Shown here one piece after another: positions 40,811 through 62,918 of a stretch of DNA of 64,000 nucleotides. The stretch comes from Candidatus Binataceae bacterium (GTDB lineage Bacteria; Desulfobacterota; Binatia; Binatales; Binataceae): the NCBI GenBank assembly GCA_963752805.1, contig CAVWAA010000033.1, forward strand, positions 10,505 through 74,504. Reading direction: 5' to 3'. A program made the position numbers and the translations under genes. How positions within the stretch are numbered: position 1 is the first letter of the stretch; every line of letters starts with the position of its first letter. Under the pieces are notes generated by a model. It did not search any database. It saw nothing but the letters and a program-made list of their open reading frames with translations, and was not told where the DNA came from.

Positions 40811-41037
40811 TTAATTGCACCAGCGGGAAAGGCATGAGTCGCGACACAGCCGAGCGCAAACTTCCAGGGCAAGCGCCGGAAAAGTCGGGCGGGCTTTCGC
40901 CTTTGGCGTCGCGGCGCGTCAAGCGCAATCGCAGATTAAAGCCTCTGGCACTTGAGCGGCCCGGGAAAAATATCGCTATCATCGCGTACTGCGCCTTTCG
41001 ACTGCGGCAGTATAGCTGGTAAAGCAAGAAAGCGGCG

Positions 41038-41131
41038 CAAACAATCGGTTCGACTTATTGAAGTTCATACCGCCTTCGTTAAAGCAAGGGAACATTTGTC
41101 CCAAACTAGCCGACGACGAGGCGGAAAAGTT
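41038..41131. repeat. 94-nt dispersed repeat, copy 1
   Basis: caaacaatcggttcgacttattgaagttcataccgccttcgttaaagcaagggaacatttgtcccaaactagccgacgacgaggcggaaaagtt vs 55455-55548: 6 mismatches by my count, same orientation. Confidence 0.85.
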
Positions 41132-41852
41132 CGCGCGTCAGCACGGGCCGCGCGTAACGCGCCGGCAGTTGCGCGCACGAGCGAGTAGAAAATACCGGCC
41201 GCGATTAAGCCCAACAACAGTGGGAAAACCACTTCGACCCTATCACCCACAACCGGACCCGCTGGTGAAATCCGAGAGGTCCTGGACCTCGGCGGTGTCG
41301 GCGGCCAACACCACATCGCACAGCAGCAGCTAACTCTGCATGAATCAAATTGGCGGAAGGTGCGCCCAGAAAGAGGCGATTCTCTGGTTATATTACCACG
41401 CAGCTGAAGGACGGCGGGACCCTCGAGAGGAACACTGCCCAGGCTTCAAGAGGTCACGCATTTGCCGAAAACGCCATACCCCGCCGGTGCAAGGACAACG
41501 GTGACAGCGTTTCCGGGGCAAGCCGAAACATTGCGCGCTTCAACTGACTAGCACTCTGCCGGGTCGTCTGTGGAGCCGATCAATGTAGGAGCTTCGCAGA
41601 TGATCCGTTCGCGCGTTAGAGATCTTTCCGCCGCGTCTCACTGGCGGTTTCGCGCGATCTTGCGCGCATTCTTCGGAACACCCAGCTATTCGCCCGTTGG
41701 CAGTCCGACAGTGACAATTGCTCATCAGTACCCGCTCGCCAGAATATTAGCGGACCACTCTAAATATGCAGCCGCCCGTAACGCGTGTCGCTATAAGATT
41801 CCTCCTGAATCTGTTGTCATGCCGTGGAAAGTATCGCTCTCTTCACTCTCAG

Positions 41853-42161
41853 CTAAGCCTTGCCCATCTGCTTCGGTCCTTTCAGCTTGGCACGCAGAGC
41901 GGCAACAGGAATCGCTGGCAGAGTGACAATGTTCACGGTTCCCCGCGATCCGAGATCGACCGACAAATGAGCGACGGTCTCATTGTCGGGAGCCTCGACA
42001 ATGGTGATGAAGTCGCACTGCCCGAGGACCGCATACTGCGCGACAACGGTGCAACCGAAGTTGGCAATCTCCTGATTCACCGCCTCCAGACGGTCGGGGT
42101 CCTTGTGCAAAGTCTGGCGCCCCTCCGGCGTCAGGGTGCTCAACAAAACGTATGTTGGCAT
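41853..42161 (-). CDS. GYD-domain protein
   Basis: MPTYVLLSTLTPEGRQTLHKDPDRLEAVNQEIANFGCTVVAQYAVLGQCDFITIVEAPDNETV..: canonical GYD-family layout (G-x-x-DF core). Confidence 0.8.
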   Translation of the reverse strand: MPTYVLLSTLTPEGRQTLHKDPDRLEAVNQEIANFGCTVVAQYAVLGQCDFITIVEAPDNETVAHLSVDLGSRGTVNIVTLPAIPVAALRAKLKGPKQMGKA

Positions 42162-42590: not shown

Positions 42591-42902
42591 ATGTACACCC
42601 GTCTATTTTTTGGCGAGATTCAGCAGGGCAAGGCTGAAGAAGCGTGGCAAATCCTCAGCGAATTCGCACAACGCGTCAAGCAGCAAAAGGGCTGCGTCCT
42701 CAATCAAGTGCTGCAAAGCGGCAACGAAATCGTCGGCATTACCAGCTGGCAGACTCAGCAAGACTTGGCCAGTTATGCTGAGGGTGAGTTGGCGCGTGAA
42801 CTCTTCAGGCGAATAACGCCGCTTTTTATGGGAATGCCAACCGTGCGCACCTTTGAGGTCAGGCTGAATCTTGCCGACCCGGCCGCCCTCAACCCAGCCT
42901 GA
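42591..42902 (+). CDS. small ABM/Dabb-like (antibiotic-biosynthesis-monooxygenase fold) protein
   Basis: 103 aa, MYTRLFFGEIQQGKAEEAWQILSEFAQRVKQQKGCVLNQVLQSGNEIVGITSWQTQQDLASY; assignment tentative, by pattern only. Confidence 0.55.
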   Translation: MYTRLFFGEIQQGKAEEAWQILSEFAQRVKQQKGCVLNQVLQSGNEIVGITSWQTQQDLASYAEGELARELFRRITPLFMGMPTVRTFEVRLNLADPAALNPA

Positions 42903-42913: not shown

Positions 42914-43561
42914 ATGTTCCAGCTAACTAAGATTTGGGTGGACCCCAATCCAAACGTCGATTCGGTCGAGATTCGATACACGTGGTCAGCCTTGGGGTCG
43001 CCGCCAAAATGGGGCGGCAACGAAGAATCCGAGGTGATGATGGTAGTGCCGAATACCAACCCGCGGATTCGCCAGGCAACTTTGGAAATCCCGCGCTATC
43101 TCGATGGCAAGGACAAGTACTCGTTGCACTACCAGTTTGGCGGCGGCGGTGAACATCACGAGGGATTTTCCCGCATCTTCACCGAAGAGATCGTGGCCCG
43201 GGAGGTCCCCTATGTTGACAAGGAGGGTCGGGTCACCGAGGTGCGGTTGCTTTGGAGCGTTGGCGGGGGGTGGACGGCTCCCAACTGGACCCAATCGAGG
43301 CTCGAAGGTCTCCCGCTTAACATTGGAAAGGATACGCCGGGGCATGACGCTGAGGGAGAAGGAATCGCGGATGAGGCGATTTACGAACTGGTCCAGACTG
43401 TGCCGCTACCGCGCCGATTCATCGCTAAAGTTTGGGGACCCCGCGGAGAGACGGTCCAGTATTCATTCCAACTCATACGCAGCAATACGCCGATCCCTGA
43501 AGATGAGTTCGAGCGCTGGGACGACAATCAGAGCCGTAACTACACTCTATCGCTGGCGTGA
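42914..43561 (+). CDS. uncharacterised protein, divergent member (A) of a three-member paralog family
   Basis: 215 aa; 11 nt after ABM-like stop; shares VEIRYTW, FTEEIVAREVPYVD, VPLPRRFIAKVWGPRG, ERWDDN blocks with 43973-44719 and 51776-52519. Confidence 0.65.
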   Translation: MFQLTKIWVDPNPNVDSVEIRYTWSALGSPPKWGGNEESEVMMVVPNTNPRIRQATLEIPRYLDGKDKYSLHYQFGGGGEHHEGFSRIFTEEIVAREVPYVDKEGRVTEVRLLWSVGGGWTAPNWTQSRLEGLPLNIGKDTPGHDAEGEGIADEAIYELVQTVPLPRRFIAKVWGPRGETVQYSFQLIRSNTPIPEDEFERWDDNQSRNYTLSLA

Positions 43562-43573
43562 CCGCAGTCTAAA

Positions 43574-43900
43574 ATGACTAGGATGAGCTTGGAGCTATCT
43601 GACATGCCGGACACGGGAACGCAGCAATTCGAAGGGATAATACTGCGCGGCAGGAAGCTTCTGGCCTGCGGGGCGTGTGGATGGATCCATTACGTGATGA
43701 GCGCCGAGGAAAAGGTAGCTCAGGACCGGACGATGGAACGCTACCATCTAGACGCGGCGGAACGACTGACCTATGAAGCAGCGTTTCGGCAATGCTTGCG
43801 CTGCGAATCGCCACTGAGCGGATTCCGCGATGCGATCGACAGCGACCTCGATCGCGCTGTCGGCCACATCGTGACTCCGGTTCTGCTCGACTCAACTTAG
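43574..43900 (+). CDS. small zinc-ribbon-like protein (two CxxC pairs)
   Basis: 108 aa; CGACGW ... CLRCES; starts 12 nt after paralog A stop. Confidence 0.5.
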   Translation: MTRMSLELSDMPDTGTQQFEGIILRGRKLLACGACGWIHYVMSAEEKVAQDRTMERYHLDAAERLTYEAAFRQCLRCESPLSGFRDAIDSDLDRAVGHIVTPVLLDST

Positions 43901-43972
43901 TCGGCGGCGACCGGCTGTTGCTCGGTTAGGTTTGTAGGACAACTTTACCTGCTTCCCGGCGCTCGCTGGTGC

Positions 43973-44719
43973 TCAGAGAACGTGCACGACATTACCCCAA
44001 TAATCTTCCCACCGATCTGCCGGATTCTCCTGCCAGAGATTGCCAACGTGCCATCGTTGATGTATCTGAGCGCCTTTGGGACCGCGAATCCGGCCGAGGA
44101 AGCGGCGGGGTAGAGGTAGCGCCGCTAACATCTGCGAACGAGTACGTGAGAAATTCTCCTTCTCCTCGGTACCGTAGAACTTGAACGATCGGTAGGGACT
44201 GTCTTCGCCGTAGCGCGCAATGAAGTTCGGCTCCTCGGTCGGCTGGTATTGCGGCGAGTCCCAGTCGTAGATGCTCCAGTAGATACACATTCCACCGAGA
44301 TTGCCCTGGTAGTCGACATACTCGACTTCCTTGCTGACGATTTCCTCGGTATACAGCTGAGTCAGTTCGCGCTTGCCATCGCGAAAAATTTCGAAATAAT
44401 GATGGAAGAGATAATTGTCGGCGTATTTGCCTGTCCCCGGGTCTTCGATCTCGTTTGGTAACTTGATGATTTTTCGACGCACGCCGTCATCTGGCAGCTG
44501 GATGGTCTCGCTTTGGGTCTGCACCGGCTGACCTGAATCATCGAGTGTGGTTCCGCCCATACCTCTCACCAGCACGCCCCCGCGCGGCATCGCCCGCGTC
44601 TCGCGTAGCGACTGCCAGTTCGGCATTTCACCAAGCGGTGTCCAGGTATAATGAATGTTGACCAGCTCGATGCCGGGTACCATATCGACAAAGGTTTTTT
44701 TCATGTAGAAGGAAAACAT
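43973..44719 (-). CDS. uncharacterised protein, paralog B of the three-member family
   Basis: 248 aa; VNIHYTWTPLG, RGMGGTTLDD, YLFHHYFEIF, YTEEIVSKEVEYVD, LPLPRRFLGRIRGPKG, ADRWEDYW. Confidence 0.7.
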   Translation of the reverse strand: MFSFYMKKTFVDMVPGIELVNIHYTWTPLGEMPNWQSLRETRAMPRGGVLVRGMGGTTLDDSGQPVQTQSETIQLPDDGVRRKIIKLPNEIEDPGTGKYADNYLFHHYFEIFRDGKRELTQLYTEEIVSKEVEYVDYQGNLGGMCIYWSIYDWDSPQYQPTEEPNFIARYGEDSPYRSFKFYGTEEKENFSRTRSQMLAALPLPRRFLGRIRGPKGAQIHQRWHVGNLWQENPADRWEDYWGNVVHVL

Positions 44720-45434
44720 CTTACGTCTCCCTCCGGGCTATATTTGGCGCGTGGCTTCCGGATTCTTTCCACCTAAGCGAGGTCTAGCAGAATCTGCGTC
44801 CGAGGGCGAATGGCAGAAGGAGGTGTATTTGCGCGAAGAAGAACGAATCGATAGAGGCGAATTGACCACTTCTTTGTTCCACTGGTCTCATGTCTGCGTG
44901 CTCATCGCAGCGCCACGGGGTGGTGTCCATTTGCCACACCGACCCGATGCAGGCCAAAAGCTTGCCGATGCGTTTACGATTCGATAGGTCCGCTTGCCCC
45001 TTGTACCCGTTGAGCTCACGATCCAGCCAGCGTTTGAAGGGGTCATTGTTTAGCTGTAAAGCAATTATTTTCGATTTGCGCAGTGCGACGGGGTCTCACT
45101 TAACGCCTGCTTCTCGAATCTCGTGAGCAGGCTCATGACCCACGCCTTTTCCTTAAAAGCGGACGTTTGTTCACCAGGGATTCATTTGAACACTCTCTAA
45201 TCCCCATCAAGTCAGTTCGCCGGCACTGCCGCTTTCGCTGAGCTGCAGCTATCCTCTCAGGACAGACGTTCATCCCTACTGATACCGTCTACGGTGGCCT
45301 TGAAAACAGTTCCACCGGCCCCATGTCTATCAGCAGAAATTGGCACCTTTCGCTTCGGCCGGACGCACCTTATTATGCGCGCGCCTCCTGCAACCTCAGG
45401 TGTGCAGCCCTAGCTTGCGCTGCCGGCGTGAGTG

Positions 45435-45854
45435 TCAACACCGGACACGGCGCCGCAGCACCTCTTCGGCCACGCTGCCCAAAATCAGATGCGAGAGACC
45501 TTTACGCCCGTGCGTCTTGAGAACGATTAGGTCCGCGTCAACTTCGGTTGCAACCCGGACCACCGCCTTGGCGAGTGCGCGCTCGGACGCAGACGCAGTG
45601 TGAATCGTGTGCTGCACTCCGGCCAGGTGCCGCTCGGCGATCTCCTGCAGCTTCGCTCGCGCCTGCTCCTCTGCGGGCGAATGCTCGTCCTCGCTAACCT
45701 CGGGCTCGCCAATCGCGCGAAGCTTTGCCACCACGTGCAGCAAATGCAGGGTTGCGCCATGGTCGGCCGCGACCAGCTTGGCAAGGCCGAGTGCTAATAG
45801 CGAGGGATCGTCGAACTGAATCGGGTTCAGGATTGAGCGATACGGGTAAGCCAT
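45435..45854 (-). CDS. universal stress protein (UspA family), C-terminal tail altered by a 1-nt frameshift
   Basis: MAYPYRSILNPIQFDD...LHLLHVV...DADLIVLKTHGRKGLSHLILGSVAEEVLRR then RVRC*; shifting one nt gives the expected APCPVLTLTPAA... tail. GGGAGGAG upstream of ATG 45854. Confidence 0.75.
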   Translation of the reverse strand: MAYPYRSILNPIQFDDPSLLALGLAKLVAADHGATLHLLHVVAKLRAIGEPEVSEDEHSPAEEQARAKLQEIAERHLAGVQHTIHTASASERALAKAVVRVATEVDADLIVLKTHGRKGLSHLILGSVAEEVLRRRVRC

Positions 45855-46407
45855 CGTCGCTCCTCCCAGTCTGATTGACTGATTGTGGCCGACTACCACT
45901 AATACTGATTCTTCCCGGCTGCTTCGCGGATCGCAAGGGTACGTTCTCGGCGCGATTAGAATGTCCGCGCCGAGAGCGCAACTTGGCTATGGGGAACCAC
46001 CCGTTTCCATAGCCGGTATATGGCTTGCGGTGAAAGTCCCGTGTCCTCTGACGCGTTCCCGTAATCGGCTCTTGAGGCTCATTTCGGCTGGCGGCGCGAA
46101 GAGTGTTCGTTTCACGCTCGCCTCCAAGCGACAAGTGATCATCATGCGTGGACTGGCGATTGTCAAAAGGTCGCGCGCCGCTGCGTGAACTCCCAGCACT
46201 CTCTGATGGAAGTTAAAGCGCTACCCGCCGAGCGGGAATGTGTATCGGGACACGCACACAATGCCCGGCATAAGGGCAGGAGGCTCGGGCGATCGTTAAC
46301 CAGCCTCAAGGTGTGCCTCCCAGGCCTGAGTGTCAGGAGAGGTTCAATTGAAGAATGTGAGGCGCTTGTAATGGTTAGCGACTCAGCATGGAAACCGACA
46401 AGAAGAA

Positions 46408-46845
46408 CTAGGCGTCACCACGCCGGCGGAGCATTTTATCAATCTCTGCCAAGTGCATTTCCTCGCCACGAATTTTCATTCGAGCAAACTCTTCCAGTGA
46501 TATGCTCCATCCGTCGCTGAGCTTGAGCAGCTTTCGATAAAGTTCGATACCCCTGCGCTCGTGAACCACTAGCTCCTGTAAAATATCGTCCACCGATGCG
46601 TGATGAGTTCCCGCCAGCTCTCCGATATCCAGCGAGACTCGTCCGCCCATTGCCGTTACTTCTTCGCCGGCTTCGGTCGCATGGAGCAGCGCCTCGGAGG
46701 CCTGCTGCCGCATCCAATGCATGATCGGAATACGAGCATGTCCGAAGATCATTAAAGAGTACTGCGTATAACGGACCGCACCTGCGAGCTCCAGTTCGAC
46801 CAGTCGGTTCAGAACCGCGATGGCCTCTGCTCTATTGTCTTCCAT
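46408..46845 (-). CDS. ferritin-like superfamily protein (bacterioferritin/Dps-like)
   Basis: MEDNRAEAIAVLNRLVELELAGAVRYTQY...SEALLHATEAGEEVTAMGG...ILQELVVHERRGIELYRKLL...IRGEEMHLAEIDKML: four-helix-bundle pattern with E/H metal ligands; Met at 46845. Confidence 0.65.
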   Translation of the reverse strand: MEDNRAEAIAVLNRLVELELAGAVRYTQYSLMIFGHARIPIMHWMRQQASEALLHATEAGEEVTAMGGRVSLDIGELAGTHHASVDDILQELVVHERRGIELYRKLLKLSDGWSISLEEFARMKIRGEEMHLAEIDKMLRRRGDA

Positions 46846-46936
46846 AGCATCACCCTTACTCAGGCTGCCCAAATCAGTTGGCTTTCGGGTCGGAAGGCTG
46901 GTGGCCCATCTGCAGCACATTGGCCTTTCGACTTAT

Positions 46937-47476
46937 TCAGGCCCCGTCTCGGCTTCGAAAGCCGACGCGTGGGTCCGGCGGAAGATTGAGGATCTCGGGC
47001 TTGAAGAAATCGCTCAAATAGTCGATCAAGTCGCGCATCGAAACTACAGCTACCGGTCGGTTCTGGTCGTCAACCAGCGGAATGTGTCGAAAACCCTCGA
47101 TCAGCATTTTATTCAGGGCGAAGGCGACGCTGGCTTCGACCGGCAATGTCACTGGGTCGACGGTCATGACCTGACTGACCGCGGTATGCCCGAGATCAGT
47201 CGGCTGACCGGCGACTTTCATCAGCACATCGCGCTCCGTGAAGATGCCGACCAGCGTTCCGCTGCTGACGACCAGGACGGCGCCACGGTTACCCTCGCGC
47301 ATCAGCTGAAGTACTTGGACCAGAGGGGTCGTTGCGTCAACCGAAAGCGCCGGATGGCTGGCGGTGTTTCCTACGCTCTCGTTCGCCAGAACCGACTCGA
47401 GATCTGGGGAACCGGGACACTCCTCCTCCGACACTCGTGAGGTCTCATCGTCAGGAATTTTCATCGCATTTCCCAA
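46937..47476 (-). CDS. CBS-domain pair protein
   Basis: Two CBS repeats (..LMREGNRGAVLVVSSGTLVGIFTERDVL.. and ..VMTVDPVTLPVEASVAFALNKMLIEGFRHIPLVDDQNRPVAVVSMRDLIDYL). Confidence 0.8.
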   Translation of the reverse strand: MGNAMKIPDDETSRVSEEECPGSPDLESVLANESVGNTASHPALSVDATTPLVQVLQLMREGNRGAVLVVSSGTLVGIFTERDVLMKVAGQPTDLGHTAVSQVMTVDPVTLPVEASVAFALNKMLIEGFRHIPLVDDQNRPVAVVSMRDLIDYLSDFFKPEILNLPPDPRVGFRSRDGA

Positions 47477-47585
47477 TTGTGTGAATCCAAAACGCTTTTC
47501 GCCACGGCTAAGGACGTGGCTCGTGATTGATACCAGCCTTGCGTCCCTCGTTTAGGACGTGGAACCTTATAAGGTCTCAATCTCC

Positions 47586-47924
47586 TTAAGCAGTGTTTTC
47601 TTCTCGACTAGACCCGTCCGCAGGACGCATTTCATCTACTACTTTCACGAATTGTTCGAACGGCAGTGCGGGCATGGTGGTAACCTGAAAGGTGCCATGG
47701 GCGGCAGCCAGAATGCCTCGTCGGAAAAGGTGCTCGACCACGTTCTGATCGGGCACCTCGATAATCGAAACGAAATCATACTCTCCTAGCGTTGCGTACA
47801 AATCGATGATGCGATACCCGGTTTGGGCGAAAAAGATCTTCGTGTCCTCATAAACTGCCCGTGCCTGCTCGATGCTCATCGCTCCTTCCCGCGTAAGCTT
47901 TAACAGAATCACTGCGCGTGCCAT
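47586..47924 (-). CDS. GYD-domain protein (second copy)
   Basis: MARAVILLKLTREGAMSIEQARAVYEDTKIFFAQTGYRIIDLYATLGEYDFVSIIEVPDQNVV; Met at 47924. Confidence 0.75.
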   Translation of the reverse strand: MARAVILLKLTREGAMSIEQARAVYEDTKIFFAQTGYRIIDLYATLGEYDFVSIIEVPDQNVVEHLFRRGILAAAHGTFQVTTMPALPFEQFVKVVDEMRPADGSSREENTA

Positions 47925-48322
47925 GGCGGCCTCCATACACTCTCTGCGTCCTCGCGGATCCACGAATCGCAATCACCCAATTGTCGCGACTTGTCAACTA
48001 TGCAGCTGAACGTGTGGAACGTTCAGGACTTCTCTAATTTCAGTTGATTCAAAACTTTCTCAACGAACTCTTTCTCAACGTAATCCGAAGGTCGTGGGCT
48101 TCTGTCTCGACGATTTCCATTCTTAGATCGAAAGGTAATTGTCCGAAAATCGATTGTAGCTCTTCGGCCTCGTCAGAAGTAAGTTCAATCATTACAATCG
48201 TGCCTCCAGGGTGAGACCCGCCGCCTGGGGCTGCCGTGCTCTAGCCGGGATTCCGAAGCATCCTTAAATATCGACATGCGCGCAGAACGCACGGCTATGC
48301 GGCAGAACGCATAGCTAAAAAC

Positions 48323-48964
48323 CTATGTTGGCGCATGCTCTCGCGGGCGATGAACGTCGTAAGCCATTAATAGGAGGTCCCGGCAATGACGGTCACGATC
48401 TTCGACCCAGTCCGGCAGTAGCGCCTCCACATGAAAGCCGAGCCTTTCGAACAGAGCCCGCGCGCTCTTATGGTCCGCCACCATCTGCGCAGTGATTTTT
48501 CTAAGCTCTAGAATCCCCGCCAGCGCCACTATCTCCGTGCAGAGTCCCTCGCCCAGCCCTCTGGACCGCCATTCGGGCGTGATGTTAATCGCAATCTCAC
48601 CGACCCTCCGTGTCCATCGAAGCGGGTTCACATGAAGGCTGGCGTAGCCAGCCAACAACCCGTCAGGCTCGGCTAAGAGAGTAGCCATATTGCCCTTCTC
48701 GATATTCGTGATCCACTCGTCCACGCTCGCCGGGTCGGTGATATCGCTGTGCAGAAACAGGAGGTCTTCTTGAGGAAGACTGCGCGCAAACTGGAGGATT
48801 GCGGCCTTGTCGGCCGCTCCCATCAGGCGCAGCGAAACCGGTTGGACCTGATGAGGCTGACCAGCGGGCCGAATGCGCAAGAACTGCGGACCGGGAGGTA
48901 CTAGACTCGCATCCAACTCGATTTTTTTAGGATAGCGCCGGATGATTTCTTCACTCGTACCCAT
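48323..48964 (-). CDS. GNAT-family acetyltransferase
   Basis: Start MGTSEEIIRRYP at 48964; motif A PEWRSRGLGEGLCTEI; ..ARALFERLGFHVEA. Confidence 0.75.
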   Translation of the reverse strand: MGTSEEIIRRYPKKIELDASLVPPGPQFLRIRPAGQPHQVQPVSLRLMGAADKAAILQFARSLPQEDLLFLHSDITDPASVDEWITNIEKGNMATLLAEPDGLLAGYASLHVNPLRWTRRVGEIAINITPEWRSRGLGEGLCTEIVALAGILELRKITAQMVADHKSARALFERLGFHVEALLPDWVEDRDRHCRDLLLMAYDVHRPREHAPT

Positions 48965-49358
48965 GGCATCGATACCTCCTTGGTTGCGATACGCTCTCGC
49001 CGAGGCTGTGAGGTACGAGAAGTCAGGTAGCTTTAAGTTTCGAGGGGCGAGACTTAATACAGCCGCCGCATGACGAGAGGATAGCATGATCGCCTTGCCC
49101 AGGGCCACGAGACGGGAGAAGCTGTGTAATAATATGGAGATGTGACCGGTGGGGTAACGCCGCGCGATAGAGAAGATCTGGCGGCAATGTGCGGTTCGGC
49201 GGTGACCAGCAGCATATGGCAACCGGCGAATAGTGGCGCGTTCGCTAAAACGGCTACGGCATGCCTTTCTTCACACGCCCTGGGCTGTCTGAGAAAATCT
49301 GATGAAGTGTGTGTCGGTCTGAAGAAGAAATTAAACGGCGTCCGCTTCCTGTCGAGTT

Positions 49359-49785
49359 TCATGAGTGCTTCCGCTCCTGTGTCGCTGGAGAGAGCGTCAG
49401 TACAAGGCGCCCGCACCATCTTTCGCCACGCTGCCCACAATGAGATGCGAAAGCCCCGCGCGACCGTGCTTTTTGGTCCACGTCGACCTCTGTTCCAGCC
49501 GCACCACCGCCTTGGCAAGGCTGCGAGGCGCCGCACGGCCCTGTCGATTTCATGCAAACCGCCGACGCGATTTCCTGCAGGATCGCAAGAGCCTTCTCGT
49601 CCTTTGGCGTAGAGTCGAATCGGACTAACATCAGACTCGCACAACCGCCGGAAGGTTAGGCACCACGTTCAACAACTGCAGTGTCGCGCGCTTTATCAGC
49701 CACGATTCCGGGCCATTGCCAAGACAACCAAAGGGGGATCGTTGAATCGGATCAGGACCGGGATCGAGCGATGCGGATAAACCAT
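49359..49785 (-). pseudogene. universal stress protein paralog, heavily frameshifted
   Basis: GGAGGAGG + ATG 49785: MVYPHRSIPVLIRFNDPPLVVLAMARN.. parallels MAYPYRSILNPIQFDDPSLLALGLAK of 45435-45854. Later pieces SLAKAVVRLEQ.., ..HGRAGLSHLIVGSVAK.. and ..VRAPCTD.. are spread over three frames with stops. Confidence 0.6.
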
Positions 49786-50067
49786 CGTTCCTCCTCCAAA
49801 AACCTCAATAGCAATAATCTTCTCAATGCCGAGGGCGTATTACTCTGCTGAGTACTACCTTGCGACCATTAGTTTGAGGACGGGTATTGTCTCGAAGTTG
49901 GCGCGCTGTCGAAGGACCCTGTCCCGCGCCTGGAGTGGAGCGATTAAATTATGAGTAACCGCGCGCCGTTGTTCTGATAACCACAGCGCGGTATGTTCGC
50001 AACTAGCAATGGTGATCGACGCGGCATGAGATGAAGAGCGAGCTTTGACCAACAGGAGATCGAAATA

Positions 50068-50361
50068 ATGCTATATGTCGCTTTTTTCAAAATCAGGCCG
50101 GGCTTTTCAGTAGACAGCGCCGAGATAATCGAAAAATCTCATAAGTGGTGGGATGGAGGAGCCAAGCCGGCAGGACTCAAGACCGTCGGTGTCTTTGGAT
50201 GCTTGGGTACGGAGGCTCGCGACGTCTTGGTCTTTGAAGCGCAAAGCCACGACGACATCCGTGAGATGGTGAATTTCTGGCGCGATACGACCGATTTCGA
50301 AGTCCATCCGGCGGTCGATCTTGCTGCCAACTTCAGGCAGCAGGGAATGAAAGTCGCCTAG
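50068..50361 (+). CDS. small DUF3303-like protein
   Basis: 97 aa, MLYVAFFKIRPGFS...GLKTVGVFGCLGTEARDVLVFEAQSHDDIREMVNFWRDTTDFEVHPAVD; family call from memory, tentative. Confidence 0.55.
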   Translation: MLYVAFFKIRPGFSVDSAEIIEKSHKWWDGGAKPAGLKTVGVFGCLGTEARDVLVFEAQSHDDIREMVNFWRDTTDFEVHPAVDLAANFRQQGMKVA

Positions 50362-50512
50362 TCGTCCCGCCGCAGCGTGGCGGAATCCCAGACCCGAGAT
50401 CCTGCGACCGCCAGGTTCAAATGTATTGGGGCGCAAGATTCACCAGCCGGCGCTGTGAGCTGAGACTTGGCCGGCTCCGAGGTCCGCTAAACTCAGTCGC
50501 CAGCTTGGGCGC

Positions 50513-51622
50513 TTACTGACTCCACAAAGTGGTGAGCAGATCCTTGAGATGGGCGCGCCAGCTCGTCCAGTTGTGTCCGCCGGCACGTTGATGGAAAAAA
50601 CACGGGCAGCCCAAAGCATTGAGCATCCCTACGATACGTTGGTGCGCTGGAAGATAACGCGGCTCGTACGTTCCCACGTCCAGGTAAAAGGCGGTCCTCG
50701 CTCCAAAGGTGGTCAAAAGTGCGGTCATCCTCACCTCTTCGATATGAAAGGCGCTGGACTGGCCACCGACCCGGGAGAACAGATGGGGACGCGAAAGGGC
50801 TACATAGGTAGAAATTAGTCCGCCCAGCGAGGCCCCCATCACGCCGCGGGCCTCGCGCTGCGAAAGCGTGCGGTAGCTACGCTCCACGTGGGGAATAAGC
50901 TCCGATTCCAGAAAGACCGCATAGTCCTCACTGGCTCGGTATTCTCGTCCACGCTCGACCGGATCAACCATAATCGTGATCAGCGGGGGAATCTTTTTGC
51001 CGAAAATCAAGTTGTCCAGCAACATCGGTAAGCGCCCACGGTTGAGGTACTCGCCCCCGTCGTGCACATAAAGGCTGGGAAAGCGCCTCGCGAGATCAGA
51101 GTCATAGCTTACGGGAAGGTAGGTGTGGATTCGGCGCCGATTCCGAAGAATCCTGCTCTCGAAGTCGAATTCCTCCACCCGGCCGTGGGGGTTCGTTGGC
51201 ATCCACTTCAGCTCAGGCGGCTCACGGAAGTCCCCTATCACGAAGTAGGAGTTGCGACCCCCTATTCCACTGTCGCAGGTATTGGAACAGAGCGGATCGT
51301 CGATGACTTGTCCGTCGACAACCAGCTTGTACTCAAGCCGCACTGGCCCATCCAGTTCGATTGTGCGATAAAAAATTCCGGTGTGCCGTAGCGGAGTCAG
51401 AGGCATCATTACGCCGGTCCTGCCCCAGTCGTTGTAGTCGCCGGTAACGGCGACTTGATGTGCCTGCGGATCGTAGTAGATGAAGTGAGCAGCGTGCCCA
51501 TCGATCATCGGCGTGCCTACCGTCCTGAGCATCCGCAAGAAATTCTGCACTTCATCATTCAGCTGATGTTCCGGGGCCTGATCGAGGCGTTGCTTCCAAG
51601 CCGGAAAGTTAGTAACGGACAT
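50513..51622 (-). CDS. esterase (esterase D/enterochelin-esterase-like) with N-terminal E-set/CBM48-like module
   Basis: HFIYYDPQAHQVAVTGDYNDWGRTG...LEYKLVVDGQVIDDP (CBM48/AMPK-beta-like), YLPVSYD..FPSLYVHDGGEY, nucleophile elbow VMGASLGGLIS, ..GGHNWTSW. Probable start MSVTNFPAW at 51622. Confidence 0.8.
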   Translation of the reverse strand: MSVTNFPAWKQRLDQAPEHQLNDEVQNFLRMLRTVGTPMIDGHAAHFIYYDPQAHQVAVTGDYNDWGRTGVMMPLTPLRHTGIFYRTIELDGPVRLEYKLVVDGQVIDDPLCSNTCDSGIGGRNSYFVIGDFREPPELKWMPTNPHGRVEEFDFESRILRNRRRIHTYLPVSYDSDLARRFPSLYVHDGGEYLNRGRLPMLLDNLIFGKKIPPLITIMVDPVERGREYRASEDYAVFLESELIPHVERSYRTLSQREARGVMGASLGGLISTYVALSRPHLFSRVGGQSSAFHIEEVRMTALLTTFGARTAFYLDVGTYEPRYLPAHQRIVGMLNALGCPCFFHQRAGGHNWTSWRAHLKDLLTTLWSQ

Positions 51623-51775
51623 CGCGTTGTCCCTCAATAATTTCTTTTGATCCTTCCCAATTGTCTTATGTGCCCGGTGCTCCCGCTTCCCTATAGGGTC
51701 GTTTGAAGACAAACCGCGAAGACCCTCGACCATAAGGGACTGTTTGAACTCCTGGATAACCGGACGGTTACCTGG

Positions 51776-52519
51776 TTAGAGCGTTGTGCTGTTCTGAAAC
51801 CGGTAGTCCTCCCACCGCTCGGCCAGGTTTGGCGTCCAGAACGGACCGGTATGCAGGCAGTAGTTGACCCTCGTACCCTTCGGCCCCTTTACCCTGCCTC
51901 TAAAGCGGCGCGGCACGGGAAGCGCCCGGACCATTTCCGAACGAATCCGGTTGAAGCTCTCCTTGTCCTCGAATCCGTAGAATTTGTGTGAGCGGAAGGG
52001 GTTGTCTTCGCCGTAATGCGCGACAAAGTTGTGTTCTTCGGTGGGCGTGTACTGGGGCGCGTCCCAGTCCTCGAGGCTCCAGTAGATGCATCCGCCGCTC
52101 AAGCTGTCGTCGTAAAAGGCGAACTCAACCTCCCTGGTGACAATCTCCTCGGTGAACAGCGGGCTGTAGTCGCACTGGCCGTTGCGGAAAACCTCAAAGA
52201 AGTGGTGGAACAGGTAATGCTCCTCGTAGCGGCCAGTTGACGGGTCGTGAACATCCTGGGGCAGGCTGAGAATCTTGCGCCGCACCCCGTCGTCAGGCAG
52301 CTCGATCCTGTCCGTGGTGGTCTGGACGCTCTGCCCGTGCTCGTCCAGAGTGGTCCCGCCCATGCCGCGGATAAGGGTTCCGCCCCGCGGCATCATCCGG
52401 GTTTCACGATGAGTTTCCCAATTGGGTGGCGTATTCATCGGCGTCCAGGTGTAGTGAATGTTCACCAACTCGATACCGGGTTCGTTGTCGACGTAGGTTT
52501 TTTTGAGATAGAACGACAT
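51776..52519 (-). CDS. uncharacterised protein, paralog C of the three-member family
   Basis: Start MSFYLKKTYVD at 52519 (aligns with MFSFYMKKTFVD of paralog B); VNIHYTWTPMN, RGMGGTTLDE, YLFHHFFEVF, FTEEIVTREVEF, LPVPRRFRGRVKGPKG, AERWEDYR. Confidence 0.7.
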   Translation of the reverse strand: MSFYLKKTYVDNEPGIELVNIHYTWTPMNTPPNWETHRETRMMPRGGTLIRGMGGTTLDEHGQSVQTTTDRIELPDDGVRRKILSLPQDVHDPSTGRYEEHYLFHHFFEVFRNGQCDYSPLFTEEIVTREVEFAFYDDSLSGGCIYWSLEDWDAPQYTPTEEHNFVAHYGEDNPFRSHKFYGFEDKESFNRIRSEMVRALPVPRRFRGRVKGPKGTRVNYCLHTGPFWTPNLAERWEDYRFQNSTTL

Positions 52520-53530: not shown

Positions 53531-53902
53531 ATGGCGGATCACAAGTTTATCGACGAGCTGGCGGCACTGAGCGAAAAGATGCTGTGGGGCAGCCTGGGCG
53601 CGGTCTATCGGCGCTGCGGGCGGGCAAACTGCCACTGCGTCACAGGCGAGAAGCATGGCCCGGTGTTCTACTTAACTCGCAACGAGGGCGGGCGCACCCG
53701 CAACATCTATGTGCCGCCCGAGTTGCACGATGAAGTTGCGGCGAGGGTCAGTGCATATCGTCGCTATCGGGAACTGGGCCAGCAAATCGCCGAGGCTAAT
53801 GCGCGCTATCTCGGGTTGGGTAAGAAGCGGCGGAGGCGGCAGGGTGATCGAACGGCGGCATCAGCAGCGCAATCTATTCGAAGCAGTCATCGGGTCAGTT
53901 GA
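53531..53902 (+). CDS. small IS-encoded protein (DUF6788-like, Cys/His cluster)
   Basis: MADHKFIDELAALSEKMLWGSLGAVYRRCGRANCHCVTGEKHGPVFYLTRNEGGRTRNIYVPPELHDEV..; Met at 53531 in track ORF 53468-53902; overlaps the transposase ORF. Confidence 0.6.
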   Translation: MADHKFIDELAALSEKMLWGSLGAVYRRCGRANCHCVTGEKHGPVFYLTRNEGGRTRNIYVPPELHDEVAARVSAYRRYRELGQQIAEANARYLGLGKKRRRRQGDRTAASAAQSIRSSHRVS

Positions 53903-55277
53903 ACAGTTAATTGAGCAGCTCATTGAGCCGCCGCTCAAGCGGTTGGACGAGGTGCTCGCGGATGAAGCCTTGCTGGAAACAGTAATGCAGGGGTTGGCGC
54001 AGCGCTGCCCGCAAAGCCGCAACCGCGGACGACCGGGCACACCTGCCGAGGTGGTACTGCGCATGCTGGTGCTGAAGCGGGTCAAGGGCTGGAGCTTCGA
54101 CGAGACCGAACGCGAGGTGCGCCAGAACCTGGTCTATCGTCATCTTACGCGGGTCTATTTCGAGCGCGTGCCCGATGCCAAGACGCTGATTAGGCTTTCG
54201 GCAGTGATTGGTGCCGATAGCATTGACGCAATCCACCGCCGTCTGGTGCAAGTGGCGCGGGAGGAAGGCGTGATCAAGGGCCGCCACGCACGAGTTGACA
54301 CAACCGTGGTCGAAACCAACATTCGCTATCCCACTGATTCTCGCCTGTTACAGGATGGAGTGCGGGTGCTGACACGAGCATTTAAGCGGATCGAAAAGGC
54401 CACCGGCGCGCTCGGCTGCAAGTTGCGTGATCGTACGCGCGCGACCACTCACCGGGTGCTGGAGATCGCGCGCGCGGCGCGCAGCCGGGCGGGCCATGGT
54501 CGCGAGCGACTTGAGCAGGGCTATCGCCGGCTGCTGTCAACCGTGCGGAGCACTATGCGCGATGCGGAACGGGTAGGCGCGGAGCTTTCTGCGGCAGCTC
54601 GCGCAGCGCTGAGCGAGCGGGCCTCGAAGGTTGTGGGGCGCAACCTAGCGCAGCTGACGCAGTTTGTTCCCTTGGTCCGCCGGGTAATCGCTCAGACCGG
54701 GGCGCGGATCTTCCACCATGATACCCATTATCCCGACAAAGTCTTCAGCCTGTCTGAGCCGCACACCGAAGCGATTCGCAAGGGCAAGGCGGCCAAGCCC
54801 ACCGAGTTCGGCAAGCTGGTCAAGATCCAGGAGGCGGAGAATCAAATCATTATCGATTATCAAGTATATGAGCGGCGGCCCGACGACCGCGCACTGCTAA
54901 TGGCGAGTATCGAAGCGCACTTGCACACCTTCGGCCGCGTCCCTCATCTGCTGGCGGCGGATCGCGGTTTTTGGTCGGCGGCGAATAAGCGTGCAGCCAG
55001 GCAGGCCGGGGTGGAAAAGGTGTGTATCCCTGCCCTGGGCCGCCTGCGGCCCGAACAAGCGGCCGAACAACGGCAGCGCTGGTTTCGCCGCGGCCAGCGT
55101 CTACGTGCCGGTTGTGAGGGGCGCATTAGTGTGCTCAAGCGGCGCGATGGTCTCGCGCGCTGCCGCTATCGCGGCACTCACGGTATGCGGCGCTGGGTCG
55201 GTTGGGGTGTGGTGAGTAATAACCTCTGGGTGCTGATGCGGACCACACGCCCGGCTCGTCGCCGTAACACTTCTTGA
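53709..55277 (+). CDS. IS5-superfamily DDE transposase (InsH-N/DUF772 + DDE_Tnp_1-like); true start probably near 53840
   Basis: LRMLVLKRVKGWSFDETEREVRQNLVYRHLTRVYFERVPDAKTLIRLS (DUF772-type), ..ARVDTTVVETNIRYPTDS.., ..LLAADRGFWS.., C-terminal RAGCEGRISVLKRRDGLARCRYRGTHGMRRWVGWGVVSNNL. Confidence 0.85.
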   Translation: MCRPSCTMKLRRGSVHIVAIGNWASKSPRLMRAISGWVRSGGGGRVIERRHQQRNLFEAVIGSVEQLIEQLIEPPLKRLDEVLADEALLETVMQGLAQRCPQSRNRGRPGTPAEVVLRMLVLKRVKGWSFDETEREVRQNLVYRHLTRVYFERVPDAKTLIRLSAVIGADSIDAIHRRLVQVAREEGVIKGRHARVDTTVVETNIRYPTDSRLLQDGVRVLTRAFKRIEKATGALGCKLRDRTRATTHRVLEIARAARSRAGHGRERLEQGYRRLLSTVRSTMRDAERVGAELSAAARAALSERASKVVGRNLAQLTQFVPLVRRVIAQTGARIFHHDTHYPDKVFSLSEPHTEAIRKGKAAKPTEFGKLVKIQEAENQIIIDYQVYERRPDDRALLMASIEAHLHTFGRVPHLLAADRGFWSAANKRAARQAGVEKVCIPALGRLRPEQAAEQRQRWFRRGQRLRAGCEGRISVLKRRDGLARCRYRGTHGMRRWVGWGVVSNNLWVLMRTTRPARRRNTS

Positions 55278-55454
55278 TCGCGGGGCAGCCGTGGACCACC
55301 TTCGTCAGAGAATTAAAACACCCCACCTAGACTAGGCCGCCTATCGAAAATCACACCCACTAAAATTCTCAGTATTTGGCCCGGCAGACACCCTGCCCAT
55401 CAACCAAATGACTTTTGCACCGCGAATTAGCTAGCACACTGGGACCTACTGGCA

Positions 55455-55548
55455 CAAGCAATCGTTTCGCCTTATTGAAGCTCATACCTCCTTCGTTAAA
55501 GCAAGGGAACATTTGTCCCAAACTAGCCGACGACGAGGCGGAAAAATT
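55455..55548. repeat. 94-nt dispersed repeat, copy 2 (20 nt outside the IS5 right end)
   Basis: See 41038-41131. Confidence 0.85.
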
Positions 55549-62906: not shown

Positions 62907-62918
62907 TGAACTATAGAT

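What the first reader, a model, noticed from the sequence alone, without database searches (positions are those of the whole stretch)
42914..52519. Three paralogs of a protein family I cannot place, embedded in a stress-gene neighbourhood
ORFs 42914-43561 (+, A), 43973-44719 (-, B) and 51776-52519 (-, C) share ordered blocks. These are V[EN]I[RH]YTW near the N-terminus, TEEIVx[RK]EV in the middle, LP[LV]PRRFxxxxxGP[RK]G, and [DE]RW[DE]D at the C-terminus.

B and C are close to each other (roughly two-thirds identical by eye). A is shorter and much more divergent, so this is an old family rather than a fresh duplication. None has a signal peptide or TM segment, and I recognise no named domain.

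Context:
- A sits in a tight operon: ABM-like protein, then A, then a CxxC...CxxC zinc-ribbon protein, with 11- and 12-nt gaps.
- C sits about 150 nt upstream of, and co-directional with, an esterase carrying an E-set/CBM48-like module.
- B is convergent on the A operon.

The C-terminal W-[ED]-D...N and the beta-rich composition loosely recall carbohydrate/glycogen-binding beta-sandwich modules. That is speculation only.
Basis: partly seen in the sequence, partly recalled or inferred. Interest (0 to 1): 0.7.

Follow-up and report, generated by a model that had tools for sequence, protein, structure and literature searches.

The report
Orphan starch-binding-like proteins near glycogen genes
The three look-alike genes are real members of an unannotated protein family, found mostly in uncultured Binatia bacteria, whose rear half is a diverged starch/glycogen-binding module and which in other genomes sits with glycogen-metabolism genes, so they most likely bind glycogen rather than act in stress responses.

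Summary
ORFs A (42914-43561 +), B (43973-44719 -) and C (51776-52519 -) are paralogs: B and C are 63% identical (E=1e-121), and A against B gives E=2e-22. The listed motifs are present. No Pfam, NCBIfam or PDB sequence match exists, and every database copy is named 'hypothetical protein'.

What they are: cytoplasmic proteins predicted to fold as two beta-sandwich domains (AlphaFold pLDDT 88.9).
- Domain 2 is a remote homolog of CBM53-type starch-binding repeats (hhalign 97.3%, E=5.6e-11). It carries a ~45-residue helical insertion and keeps both binding-site tryptophans.
- Domain 1 is an orphan beta-sandwich with no significant structural relative.

Across 45 species-representative loci the family co-occurs with a CE1-type esterase, an amidohydrolase carrying its own starch-binding module, an ABM protein and a zinc-ribbon protein. 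In 28 of the 36 loci of at least 8 kb there is an alpha-glucan gene within 10 kb (GH13, GH57, GlgA, GlgB, GlgC or GlgX). Natural fusions to the esterase and the amidohydrolase exist.

The window's 'stress genes' are not conserved neighbours. The window has no glycogen genes and is rich in mobile elements.

Best reading (about 0.55): non-catalytic glycogen-binding adaptor proteins. This is a new variant of a known kind. Glucan binding is not tested.

The parts
42914..43561 (+). Paralog A (215 aa), 'A-type' subfamily. Domain 1 is about residues 1-88 and domain 2 about residues 89-215. It ends with ERWDDNQSRNYTL, the version closest to the canonical WDNNxGxNY motif of starch-binding domains.
   Evidence: ORF. 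E=2e-22 to B. 258 homologs, 62-96% identical, all named hypothetical. A-type forms its own subfamily of 30 members in the sampled loci. A GGAGG Shine-Dalgarno lies 6 nt before the ATG.
43973..44719 (-). Paralog B (248 aa), 'B/C-type' subfamily. Domain 1 is an orphan beta-sandwich, residues 1-122, nt 44354-44719. Domain 2 is a CBM53-like starch-binding-type module with a helical insertion at about residues 160-200; it spans residues 123-248, nt 43976-44353.
   Evidence: ORF. 226 homologs, 66-84% identical. AlphaFold2 model pLDDT 88.9, pTM 0.80, 14 strands plus 3 helices. Domain 2 against CBM53-type repeats: hhalign 97.3%, E=5.6e-11. W148, W153 and W237 are invariant in 36 sequences.
51776..52519 (-). 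Paralog C (247 aa), a rarer and more divergent lineage within the B/C-type subfamily. It lies directly upstream of the esterase and runs in the same direction.
   Evidence: 63% identical to B. Its own 90%-identity cluster has 102 members. Only L046 among the species representatives is closer to C than to B.
42591..42902 (+). ABM-domain protein (103 aa), first gene of the ABM-A-zinc-ribbon operon and a conserved partner of A-type genes.
   Evidence: Pfam PF03992, E=9.7e-6, 26.1 bits against a cut-off of 23.1. Homolog present in 25 of the 36 loci of at least 8 kb, and directly upstream of A-type genes in L001, L004, L009, L011 and L059.
43574..43900 (+). CxxC...CxxC zinc-ribbon-like protein (108 aa), third gene of the operon and a conserved partner with no known family.
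   Evidence: Four cysteines. No significant Pfam or NCBIfam hit. Homolog in 22 of the 36 loci of at least 8 kb, following A-type or B-type genes.
50513..51733 (-). CE1-type esterase with an N-terminal CBM48-like module, downstream of C. It is a conserved partner of B/C-type genes. The true start may be Met38 at 51622.
   Evidence: Pfam Esterase PF00756 E=3.4e-21, AMPK1_CBM 2.9e-4, CBM_48 3.5e-3. Closest solved relatives are the CBM48-CE1 esterases 7B5V, 6RZN and 6NE9 at about 3e-21, with Fes 2B20 at 5e-14. Homolog in 25 of the 36 loci. Natural fusions of the family domain to this esterase type: P0266 and P0313.

Best explanation
A, B and C are cytoplasmic, non-catalytic proteins built from two beta-sandwich domains.

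The C-terminal domain is a strongly diverged starch-binding domain of the CBM53/CBM25 type. It retains the two aromatic residues that form binding site 1 in such modules (W153 and W237 in B). It is interrupted by a helical insertion of about 45 residues. The N-terminal domain is an orphan beta-sandwich. In other genomes that domain also exists as a separate small gene.

The family belongs to a conserved gene cluster, best developed in Candidatus Binatia. The cluster is built around glycogen-metabolism genes (a GH13 amylase-type enzyme, a GH57 branching enzyme, GlgA, GlgB/X, GlgC). It also contains three recurrent partners: a CE1-type esterase, an Amidohydro_2 enzyme with its own starch-binding module, and an ABM protein with a zinc-ribbon protein.

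The most likely mode of action is as follows. Domain 2 binds alpha-1,4-glucan chains of intracellular glycogen. Domain 1, and possibly the helical insertion, contacts a paralog-specific partner: B/C-type with the esterase, domain-1-only type with the amidohydrolase, A-type with ABM and zinc-ribbon. Each paralog would then tether or position one enzyme on the polymer.

Shown here: paralogy, the predicted fold, remote homology of domain 2 to starch-binding repeats, conserved synteny, and the natural fusions. Inferred: glucan binding, partner contacts, and the adaptor role. In this particular window the cluster is fragmented; only ABM, zinc-ribbon and esterase remain next to the three paralogs.
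For: Homology of domain 2 to starch-binding modules:
- An exhaustive profile search of 1.84 billion representatives gave only 160 hits. The non-family hits (E from 3e-7 to 2e-4) are proteins with several CBM53 / Ig_N_CWD1 repeats that pass Pfam's own thresholds.
- Profile positions 123-154 and 205-245 match the two halves of every such repeat.
- hhalign of domain 2 against 10 such repeats: 97.3% probability, E=5.6e-11, 96 aligned columns.
- W153 aligns with the Trp of 'NGW' and W237 with the Trp of 'WDNN'. These are the site-1 aromatics W34 and W74-D75 of CBM25 structure 2C3V (PMC4625611). Both are invariant in the family.
- The esterase fusions and protein A keep WDNNxGxN / WDDNxxxNY.

Fold: the AlphaFold2 model is confident and nearly all beta.

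Context:
- 28 of the 36 loci of at least 8 kb have an alpha-glucan gene within 10 kb.
- Counts among those 36 loci: esterase 25, SBD-Amidohydro_2 23, ABM 25, zinc-ribbon 22.
- GlgA, GlgB and GlgC score above NCBIfam cut-offs.

The same associations recur in distant genomes:
- Geodermatophilaceae: ABM, B-like, A-like, SBD-Amidohydro_2.
- A Syntrophobacter MAG: GlgB, family gene, esterase.
- A 36%-GC contig: family-esterase fusion next to a GH13 gene.

Rosetta-stone fusions: family plus esterase (P0266, P0313), and domain 1 plus SBD plus Amidohydro_2 (P0301, in an otherwise identical cluster, L059).

Localisation: no signal peptide or TM segment, consistent with cytoplasmic glycogen.
Against: - No curated starch-binding model reaches significance on any of 109 members. 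The best are CBM53 at 0.076, CBM_21 at 0.17 and CBM_25 at 0.33.
- Foldseek finds no significant solved relative for the whole protein (best E=0.013) or for domain 1 (best E=0.06, TM 0.41 or less).
- In B and C the Asn pair of WDNN is replaced (WEDY). The module is also split by a long insertion, so sugar binding could have been lost.
- The mapping of family tryptophans onto 2C3V residues goes through motif correspondence in bridging sequences. It was not made by a direct structural alignment.
- CBM48 modules of characterised CE1 esterases do not bind glycans. Beta-sandwich modules in this enzyme context can therefore be purely structural.
- The window itself and 8 of the 36 loci lack glycogen genes.
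- Most loci are Binatia with shared synteny, so the counts are not independent events.
- No direct evidence for protein-protein contacts was obtained.
Confidence: 0.55

Rival explanations
1. The starch-binding-derived fold has been exapted as a purely structural or regulatory subunit. The paralogs would pack against the catalytic domains of the esterase or amidohydrolase to shape the active-site cleft or drive oligomerisation, as CBM48 does in CE1 esterases. They would not bind any glucan themselves.
For: - In characterised CBM48-CE1 enzymes the CBM48 binds no glycan. It packs beside the active site and mediates dimer contacts (PMC8040265).
- In fusions P0266 and P0313 the family domains occupy exactly the N-terminal position that CBM48 has in the neighbouring esterase.
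- The domain-1-only genes overlap or abut Amidohydro_2 genes and are fused to them in P0301.
- The WDNN Asn pair is lost in B and C, and a long helical insertion is present.
Against: - Both site-1 tryptophans are invariant across all subfamilies.
- The Binatia esterase and amidohydrolase already carry their own beta-sandwich modules.
- The strong link to alpha-glucan genes needs no explanation under this model unless the enzymes themselves act on glycogen.
Confidence: 0.2
2. The cluster acts on an aromatic, siderophore-like or other non-glucan ester substrate, for example feruloyl or catecholate esters. The family proteins would bind that ligand or chaperone it between the esterase, the ABM monooxygenase and the Amidohydro_2 decarboxylase/lactonase. 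The glycogen genes would merely be neighbours.
For: - The esterase is closest to feruloyl/acetyl-xylan CE1 esterases and next to enterochelin esterase.
- Amidohydro_2 includes aromatic-acid decarboxylases and lactonases (established knowledge of PF04909).
- ABM is a monooxygenase family.
- One relative is fused to an isochorismatase domain (P0324).
- L004 has an aromatic-ring hydroxylase and MarR nearby.
- Eight of the 36 loci lack glycogen genes.
Against: - Domain 2 and the N-terminus of the amidohydrolase are starch-binding-type modules (LHYGFDGW...ERWDNNGGVNYRL).
- A GH13 enzyme directly follows the esterase in about 20 loci, and GH57/GlgA/GlgC/GlgB/GlgX recur.
- The same linkage is seen in distant lineages.
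Confidence: 0.12
3. The family proteins are themselves enzymes of a new type. They would use the conserved polar residues of domain 1 and the domain linker (D12, E40, R81, Y103, H106, E125, E126) to act on glycogen or on a glycogen modification.
For: - Several charged or polar positions are invariant or nearly so across subfamilies that are only 25-30% identical.
- Conservation within subfamilies is unusually high (66-84%) for a mere binding module.
- Domain 1 has no recognisable relative.
Against: - There is no similarity to any catalytic family.
- The fold is a pair of beta-sandwiches typical of binding modules.
- The domains are fused to bona fide enzymes in the way accessory modules are.
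Confidence: 0.08
4. One reading: the paralogs are part of a stress-response neighbourhood (Usp, ferritin-like, CBS, GYD, GNAT).
For: In this window these genes lie between B and C. Usp and GYD homologs recur in a minority of loci, 5 and 6 of 36.
Against: - Ferritin-like and GNAT neighbours occur in 0 of 36 loci and CBS in 2 of 36.
- The window segment is rearranged and rich in mobile elements. It holds a DDE transposase at 53709-55277, a flanking 98-nt direct repeat and a Usp pseudogene.
Confidence: 0.05

Closest known systems
CBM53 starch-binding domains (Pfam PF16760; the tandem D1-D3 modules of plant and algal starch synthase III) and the related CBM25 modules of bacterial amylases
   Same: - Domain 2 aligns with CBM53-type repeats over its whole beta core (hhalign 97.3%).
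- It shares the 'xEIxY ... (V/I)W(G/S)xxxW' start and the 'F(V)AKVxVPxGAxIxYxF ... W(D/E)' end.
- It keeps the two site-1 aromatic residues.
- It occurs with alpha-glucan enzymes.
   Different: - It falls below every curated model's threshold.
- A helical segment of about 45 residues is inserted in the middle.
- The Asn pair of WDNN is replaced in B and C.
- It is not appended to a glycoside hydrolase or synthase. It stands alone behind an orphan N-terminal beta-sandwich.
- No binding data exist.
Non-catalytic glucan-targeting proteins: AMPK beta subunit (CBM48), plant PTST/FLO6 (CBM48), mammalian Stbd1 (CBM20)
   Same: The architecture and proposed logic match: a starch/glycogen-binding module joined to a protein-interaction part, with no catalytic domain, bringing partner enzymes to the polymer.
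   Different: - No sequence homology to these proteins was detected. Domain 2 against a CBM48 alignment gives hhalign 6%.
- The family is bacterial and cytoplasmic, with several paralogs per genome that pair with different partners.
- The adaptor role here is inferred only from synteny and fusions.
N-terminal CBM48 module of CE1 carbohydrate esterases (7B5V, 6RZN, 6NE9) and the N-domain of enterochelin esterase Fes
   Same: In P0266 and P0313 the family domains sit directly N-terminal to a PF00756 esterase domain, the place CBM48 occupies in the window's esterase and in the solved CE1 enzymes.
   Different: - There is no detectable homology to that CBM48 subgroup.
- In most genomes the family is a separate polypeptide.
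- The CE1-attached CBM48s were shown not to bind glycans, whereas the family keeps starch-binding site residues.
Glucan-targeted modifying enzymes such as laforin, SEX4 and LSF2 (a starch-binding module plus a phosphatase) and glucan-water dikinase (CBM45 / Ig_N_CWD1 plus a dikinase)
   Same: The cluster partners follow the same design principle, a starch-binding module fused to a non-glycosidase enzyme (Amidohydro_2, esterase). The bridging repeats also match Pfam's Ig_N_CWD1 model.
   Different: The catalytic domains are different (amidohydrolase, alpha/beta-hydrolase esterase, ABM). No substrate is known. The family proteins themselves have no catalytic domain.

Membership tests
CBM53 / CBM25-type starch-binding domain (domain 2 only) | Match to the curated family model above its gathering threshold | tested here: not met
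   No Pfam hit for A, B or C at E up to 1. Among 109 members scanned at E up to 10, the best were CBM53 0.076 (1 member), CBM_21 0.17 (6 members) and CBM_25 0.33 (1 member).
CBM53 / CBM25-type starch-binding domain (domain 2 only) | Demonstrable homology to bona fide family members | tested here: met
   The family profile hits multi-repeat proteins that pass Pfam thresholds for CBM53 (up to 46.6 bits against 27.6) and Ig_N_CWD1, with E from 3e-7 to 2e-4 in a library of 1.84 billion proteins. hhalign gives 97.3%, E=5.6e-11 over 96 columns. P0301's domain-2 region gives a weak direct CBM53 hit (0.0017).
CBM53 / CBM25-type starch-binding domain (domain 2 only) | Beta-sandwich fold superposable on solved starch-binding modules | tested here: inconclusive
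   The AlphaFold2 model is confident and beta-rich. Foldseek against the PDB gives no significant match: best E=0.013, and the CGTase D/E (CBM20) domains appear only at probability 0.1-0.25. According to PMC4625611, which dates from 2015, no CBM53 structure had been solved.
CBM53 / CBM25-type starch-binding domain (domain 2 only) | Conserved aromatic pair of binding site 1 (W34 and W74-D75 in 2C3V numbering) | tested here: met
   W153 and W237-E/D are invariant in 36 family sequences. They align with the 'NGW' and 'WDNN' tryptophans of the bridging repeats. The correspondence to 2C3V residues is taken from PMC4625611 and is an inference through motifs.
CBM53 / CBM25-type starch-binding domain (domain 2 only) | Binding to starch, glycogen or maltooligosaccharides | not testable with these tools
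   This needs pull-down, ITC or affinity-gel experiments.
CBM48 (glycogen-binding module of GlgB, GlgX and AMPK beta) | Sequence or profile similarity to CBM48 | tested here: not met
   No Pfam CBM_48 or AMPK1_CBM hit. hhalign of domain 1 and domain 2 against the CBM48 region of 25 cluster esterases gives 0.3% and 6.1%.
Internal tandem duplication (two copies of one module) | Detectable similarity between domain 1 and domain 2 | tested here: not met
   hhalign of domain 1 against domain 2 gives probability 0.9%. Domain 1 against the CBM53-type repeats gives 0.04%. Domain 1 alone has no significant Foldseek hit, best E=0.06.
Non-catalytic glucan-targeting adaptor (functional class, e.g. PTST, AMPK beta, Stbd1) | A glucan-binding module plus a partner-binding part, no catalytic domain, and genetic or physical linkage to partner enzymes | tested here: inconclusive
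   Architecture and linkage are met: no catalytic family, conserved synteny and fusions. Glucan binding and physical interaction are untested.

The most novel reading that the evidence does not exclude
The conserved cluster may encode a previously unrecognised system that edits or repairs covalently modified intracellular glycogen, for example acylated or oxidised chain ends.

Its parts are a CE1-type esterase, an Amidohydro_2 enzyme tagged with a starch-binding module, an ABM protein, a zinc-ribbon protein and three to five paralogs of this family, all sitting beside GH13/GH57/GlgA/GlgC.

Under this reading the family paralogs would be dedicated glycogen-granule adaptors, each delivering one enzyme to the polymer. 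That would be a bacterial counterpart of the laforin/SEX4-type glucan-targeted modifying enzymes. Domain 2 would found a new starch-binding CBM family, and domain 1 a new partner-docking fold.
Probability: 0.15. Interest if true: 0.8.

Novelty: new variant of a known kind. Interest (0 to 1): 0.58.

Why it matters
How bacteria organise and modify intracellular glycogen beyond the classical Glg enzymes is poorly understood, and non-catalytic glycogen-targeting proteins are known mainly from eukaryotes.

This family has no Pfam or NCBIfam model, no solved relative and no paper in the searched library. It is abundant in the soil and sediment lineage Binatia, with hundreds of clusters at 90% identity. 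It is tied by synteny and by gene fusion to enzymes that carry starch-binding modules but are not glycosidases.

If glucan binding is confirmed, three things follow:
- It would define a new starch-binding module family with an unusual helical insertion.
- It would flag an uncharacterised set of glycogen-directed enzymes.
- It would improve annotation of many 'hypothetical proteins'.

A cultured carrier, Blastococcus jejuensis JCM 15614, makes the question experimentally approachable.

Tried and rejected
- Pfam and NCBIfam scans of A, B and C found nothing. Pfam at E up to 10 on 109 members gave only noise-level hits.
- PDB sequence searches with the 3-sequence profile, the 109-sequence profile and one bridging CBM53-type repeat gave no meaningful hit.
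- Foldseek against the PDB found no significant match. For the full-length B model the best E was 0.013, with tandem beta-sandwich proteins only. For the domain-1 model the best E was 0.06, with TM 0.41 or less, and the hits were GH2 Ig-like domains, CBM34 N-domains of neopullulanase, and arrestin-like VDUP-1.
- The internal-duplication hypothesis (domain 1 related to domain 2) is rejected at the sequence level.
- Relatedness of either domain to the partner enzymes' own modules was tested. For the esterase CBM48 the result was rejected. For the amidohydrolase starch-binding module it was marginal, 46% and confined to the WDNN stretch.
- The stress-gene association is rejected by the census.
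- A search for further copies or a domain-1-only gene in the window found none.
- Promoter and terminator scans around the A operon and B gave nothing above the shuffled expectation.
- Literature searches on Binatia plus glycogen, on starch-binding domain plus amidohydrolase plus esterase, and on non-catalytic glycogen-granule CBM proteins found no description of this family or cluster.
- The 'viral' fold library and the third homolog search were not used, as they were not relevant.

Full report
**1. Observation**

The three ORFs are present as described: A 42914-43561 (+, 215 aa), B 43973-44719 (-, 248 aa) and C 51776-52519 (-, 247 aa). C has a longer TTG alternative reaching 52555, but it is not supported by homolog alignments. 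B and C are 63% identical (E=1e-121). A against B is 24% identical with E=2e-22. The only correction is that A reads VPLPRRF rather than LPLPRRF.

The operon geometry is as stated. The gaps are 11 and 12 nt, and a GGAGG precedes the A start. B is convergent on the operon, and C is co-directional with the esterase. None of the three has a hydrophobic segment compatible with a signal peptide or membrane helix. A profile scan of the six-frame translation finds exactly these three members in the 64 kb.

**2. No curated family, but a real and conserved family**

Pfam, NCBIfam and a PDB sequence-profile search return nothing for A, B or C. Word-indexed searches find 226 relatives of B (66-84% identical) and 258 of A (62-96%). 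All are unnamed or 'hypothetical protein'. Where a source names the organism, it is Candidatus Binatia or 'Deltaproteobacteria' MAGs. The exact window proteins are on record from a 140,099-bp contig.

An exhaustive HMMER profile search of 1.84 billion cluster representatives finds only 160 hits at E of 0.001 or better. The family is therefore narrow but strongly constrained.

**3. Fold and domain structure**

AlphaFold2 on B with a 36-sequence alignment gives pLDDT 88.9 and pTM 0.80. Eight strands make up residues 3-119. Six strands plus three helices (164-199) make up residues 123-247. Domain 1 folded alone is also confident (pLDDT 83.4).

Foldseek against the PDB gives no significant match. 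For the whole protein the best E is 0.013, and the hits are tandem beta-sandwiches such as CGTase D/E domains, cytokine-receptor FN3 pairs and pilins. For domain 1 the best E is 0.06 with TM 0.41 or less, and the hits are GH2 Ig-like domains, CBM34 N-domains of neopullulanase and an arrestin-like domain. Structure alone therefore says 'two beta-sandwiches' and nothing more.

**4. Domain 2 is a diverged starch-binding module**

The weakest significant hits of the exhaustive search (P0359, P0369, P0382, P0385, P0389) carry two to four repeats. Four of them (P0359, P0382, P0385, P0389) were scanned against Pfam and pass its thresholds for CBM53 and/or Ig_N_CWD1, the glucan-water-dikinase N-terminal module. 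P0369 was not scanned but shows the same repeat pattern in the alignments. The family profile matches each repeat in two pieces:
- Positions 123-154 (TEEIVSKEVEYVD..G....I.WSv.DW) align with 'LVTQEIRY..PEAGEVFLVWGINGW'.
- Positions 205-245 (RRFvGKV.GPKGA.V.Y.F.......RWED) align with 'FVAKVRVPAGATIDYGF.......IWDNN'.

Profile-profile comparison of domain 2 with ten such repeats gives 97.3% probability, E=5.6e-11, over 96 columns. A family-specific insertion of about 45 residues coincides with the predicted helices.

The family's invariant W153 and W237 fall on the Trp of 'NGW' and the Trp of 'WD(NN)'. According to PMC4625611 these are the site-1 aromatic residues W34 and W74(-D75) of CBM25 structure 2C3V, which are conserved across CBM25, CBM48 and CBM53. 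I derive this residue correspondence from motifs, not from a structural superposition.

Protein A (ERWDDNQSRNYTL) and the esterase fusions (FWDNNNGWN, AWDNNKGLNFS) keep a near-canonical ending. B and C have WEDY.

Curated Pfam starch-binding models do not reach significance on any of 109 members, although CBM_21, CBM53 and CBM_25 are three of the twelve noise-level families seen. Domain 1 shows no similarity to domain 2, to the CBM53-type repeats, or to the partner enzymes' modules.

**5. Genomic context outside the window**

Context look-ups for individual homologs first showed the pattern. In L009, L011 and L012 one co-directional cluster reads: CBM48-esterase, GH13/hDGE-type amylase, GlgX-like isoamylase, ABM, A-type, zinc-ribbon, B-type, a ~140-aa gene, Amidohydro_2. 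In L007 and L008 a B-type gene lies next to GlgA, with GlgC nearby. In L004 the esterase precedes a B-type gene, and the ABM, A-type and zinc-ribbon triad is adjacent.

tblastn showed that the ~113-156-aa genes upstream of Amidohydro_2 are a fourth paralog type consisting of domain 1 only.

A scan of one genome per GTDB species gave 45 loci. Clustering their ORFs, followed by a tblastn census, gave these counts for the 36 loci of at least 8 kb:

| Neighbour | Loci (of 36) |
|---|---|
| Esterase | 25 |
| ABM | 25 |
| SBD-Amidohydro_2 | 23 |
| Zinc-ribbon | 22 |
| GH13/hDGE-type enzyme | 19 |
| GH57 branching enzyme | 9 |
| GlgA | 8 |
| GlgC | 6 |
| GlgX | 5 |
| GlgB | 3 |
| At least one alpha-glucan gene | 28 |

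GlgA, GlgB and GlgC representatives score above NCBIfam's curated cut-offs. The Amidohydro_2 partner begins with a canonical-looking starch-binding module (LHYGFDGW...ERWDNNGGVNYRL), which gives a weak Pfam CBM53 hit.

By contrast, the window's ferritin-like, GNAT, CBS, Usp and GYD genes occur in 0, 0, 2, 5 and 6 of the 36 loci.

Subfamily analysis gives B/C-type (41 members), A-type (30), domain-1-only (15), a ~226-aa type next to GH57 (5), and separate actinobacterial types. C belongs to a rarer lineage of the B/C type.

**6. Independent lineages and fusions**

The same associations appear outside Binatia:
- In Geodermatophilaceae (Blastococcus jejuensis JCM 15614, Modestobacter, one MAG) the operon is ABM, B-like, A-like, SBD-Amidohydro_2. 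In Modestobacter GlgC and GlgA lie 8 kb away.
- In a Syntrophobacter MAG, GlgB is divergent from a family gene that is followed by the esterase.

Natural fusions exist:
- P0266 and P0313 join the family domains to a PF00756 esterase. P0266 sits on a 36%-GC contig next to a GH13 gene.
- P0301 joins domain 1, a starch-binding module and Amidohydro_2. Its 73%-GC contig reads B-type, then the fusion, with A-type and ABM on the opposite strand.
- P0324 carries an isochorismatase domain.

These are Rosetta-stone-type indications of functional, and probably physical, coupling.

**7. Interpretation**

The best-supported reading is that A, B and C are non-catalytic, cytoplasmic glycogen-associated proteins. 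Their domain 2 binds alpha-glucan, and their domain 1 (and/or the insertion) couples them to paralog-specific partners. I give this about 0.55.

The main caveat comes from the literature. In CE1 esterases closest to the window's esterase (7B5V, 6RZN, 6NE9), the attached CBM48 does not bind glycans and serves a structural role (PMC8040265). A starch-binding-derived module in this context could therefore be purely structural (rival, about 0.2).

Other readings are less likely but not excluded. One is a non-glucan (aromatic or siderophore-ester) pathway, at about 0.12. Another is an unrecognised catalytic activity of the family itself, at about 0.08. The stress-gene framing is essentially refuted.

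What the esterase, amidohydrolase and ABM enzymes do chemically is unknown. The most novel reading still allowed is a glycogen-editing system with dedicated adaptors (probability about 0.15).

**8. State of the window**

Here the cluster is fragmentary. There is no GH13, SBD-Amidohydro_2, domain-1-only gene or Glg gene in the 64 kb. The 14.4-kb segment carrying A, B and C is bracketed by a 98-nt direct repeat and contains a DDE transposase and a Usp pseudogene. Other transposases and a group II intron lie elsewhere in the window. Rearrangement by mobile elements is a plausible reason for the atypical neighbours.

**9. Novelty and verdict**

No paper in the searched library describes the family or the cluster, and no curated model covers it. 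It is not categorically new, because half of the protein is a recognisable, if remote, member of the starch-binding module superfamily. I rate it as a new variant of a known kind: a stand-alone, insertion-bearing starch-binding-like module joined to an orphan domain, multiplied into partner-specific paralogs. Interest is 0.58.

Noticed in passing
window 41034-41131 and 55451-55548: A 98-nt direct repeat, 93% identical, with its 54-nt core identical. There are only two copies in the window, and the one copy scanned (41034-41131, within 40900-41500) gave no Rfam match. It brackets the 14.4-kb segment that holds A, B, C and a DDE transposase. It may mark a rearrangement or a mobile segment.
   Followed up: partly
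window 23075-23294 (+): Group II intron D1-D4 RNA (RF02005, 115.5 bits, E=5e-32).
   Followed up: no
window 676-2160 (-), 3736-4740 (-), 53709-55277 (+): Three transposase genes: a Mu-type rve/Mu-transpos_C gene, a Y2_Tnp gene, and a DUF772/DDE IS gene. The window is rich in mobile elements, which may explain why the usual gene cluster is fragmented here.
   Followed up: partly
window 49418-49800 (-): A Usp-like remnant split over two frames: tblastn pieces at 49708-49800 and 49418-49687, 36-52% identical to the intact Usp at 45435-45899. It is probably a pseudogene.
   Followed up: no
window 41853-42161 (-), 42591-42902 (+), 47586-47972 (-), 50068-50361 (+): Four small proteins lie within 9 kb: GYD, ABM, GYD and DUF3303. 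From my own knowledge of Pfam's clan grouping (not checked here), all four families belong to the dimeric alpha/beta-barrel clan. GYD homologs recur near the family in 6 of 36 loci.
   Followed up: partly
window 8149-9306 (-) and 9366-10496 (-): Tandem Amidohydro_2 paralogs, 40% identical to each other. They are not orthologs of the starch-binding-module-tagged Amidohydro_2 partner: that protein finds no match in the window by tblastn.
   Followed up: partly
window 57546-63977 (-): A MoxR (AAA_3), DUF58, BatA and VWA operon of the aerotolerance type. Tandem family-III CoA-transferases lie at 36890-39414 (-).
   Followed up: no
L009 1402-3069, L011 1205-2896, L012 76-1767: In these genomes the cluster esterase is ~560 aa and carries an extra C-terminal HSP20 / alpha-crystallin-like domain, another beta-sandwich. 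A ~185-aa rubrerythrin/ferritin-like gene precedes it in six loci.
   Followed up: no
L027 2039-2767, L028 3523-4203, L032 2417-3097, L038 16010-16654, L044 3463-4263: A fifth family subtype of about 226 aa, with a truncated C-terminus ending near profile position 227. In these loci it sits directly next to the GH57 branching-enzyme gene.
   Followed up: partly
L051 9771-12392 (Blastococcus jejuensis JCM 15614, NZ_BAAAVV010000004.1): A cultured actinomycete carries a compact operon of ABM, B-like, A-like and SBD-Amidohydro_2. It offers a tractable organism for testing the family's function.
   Followed up: partly
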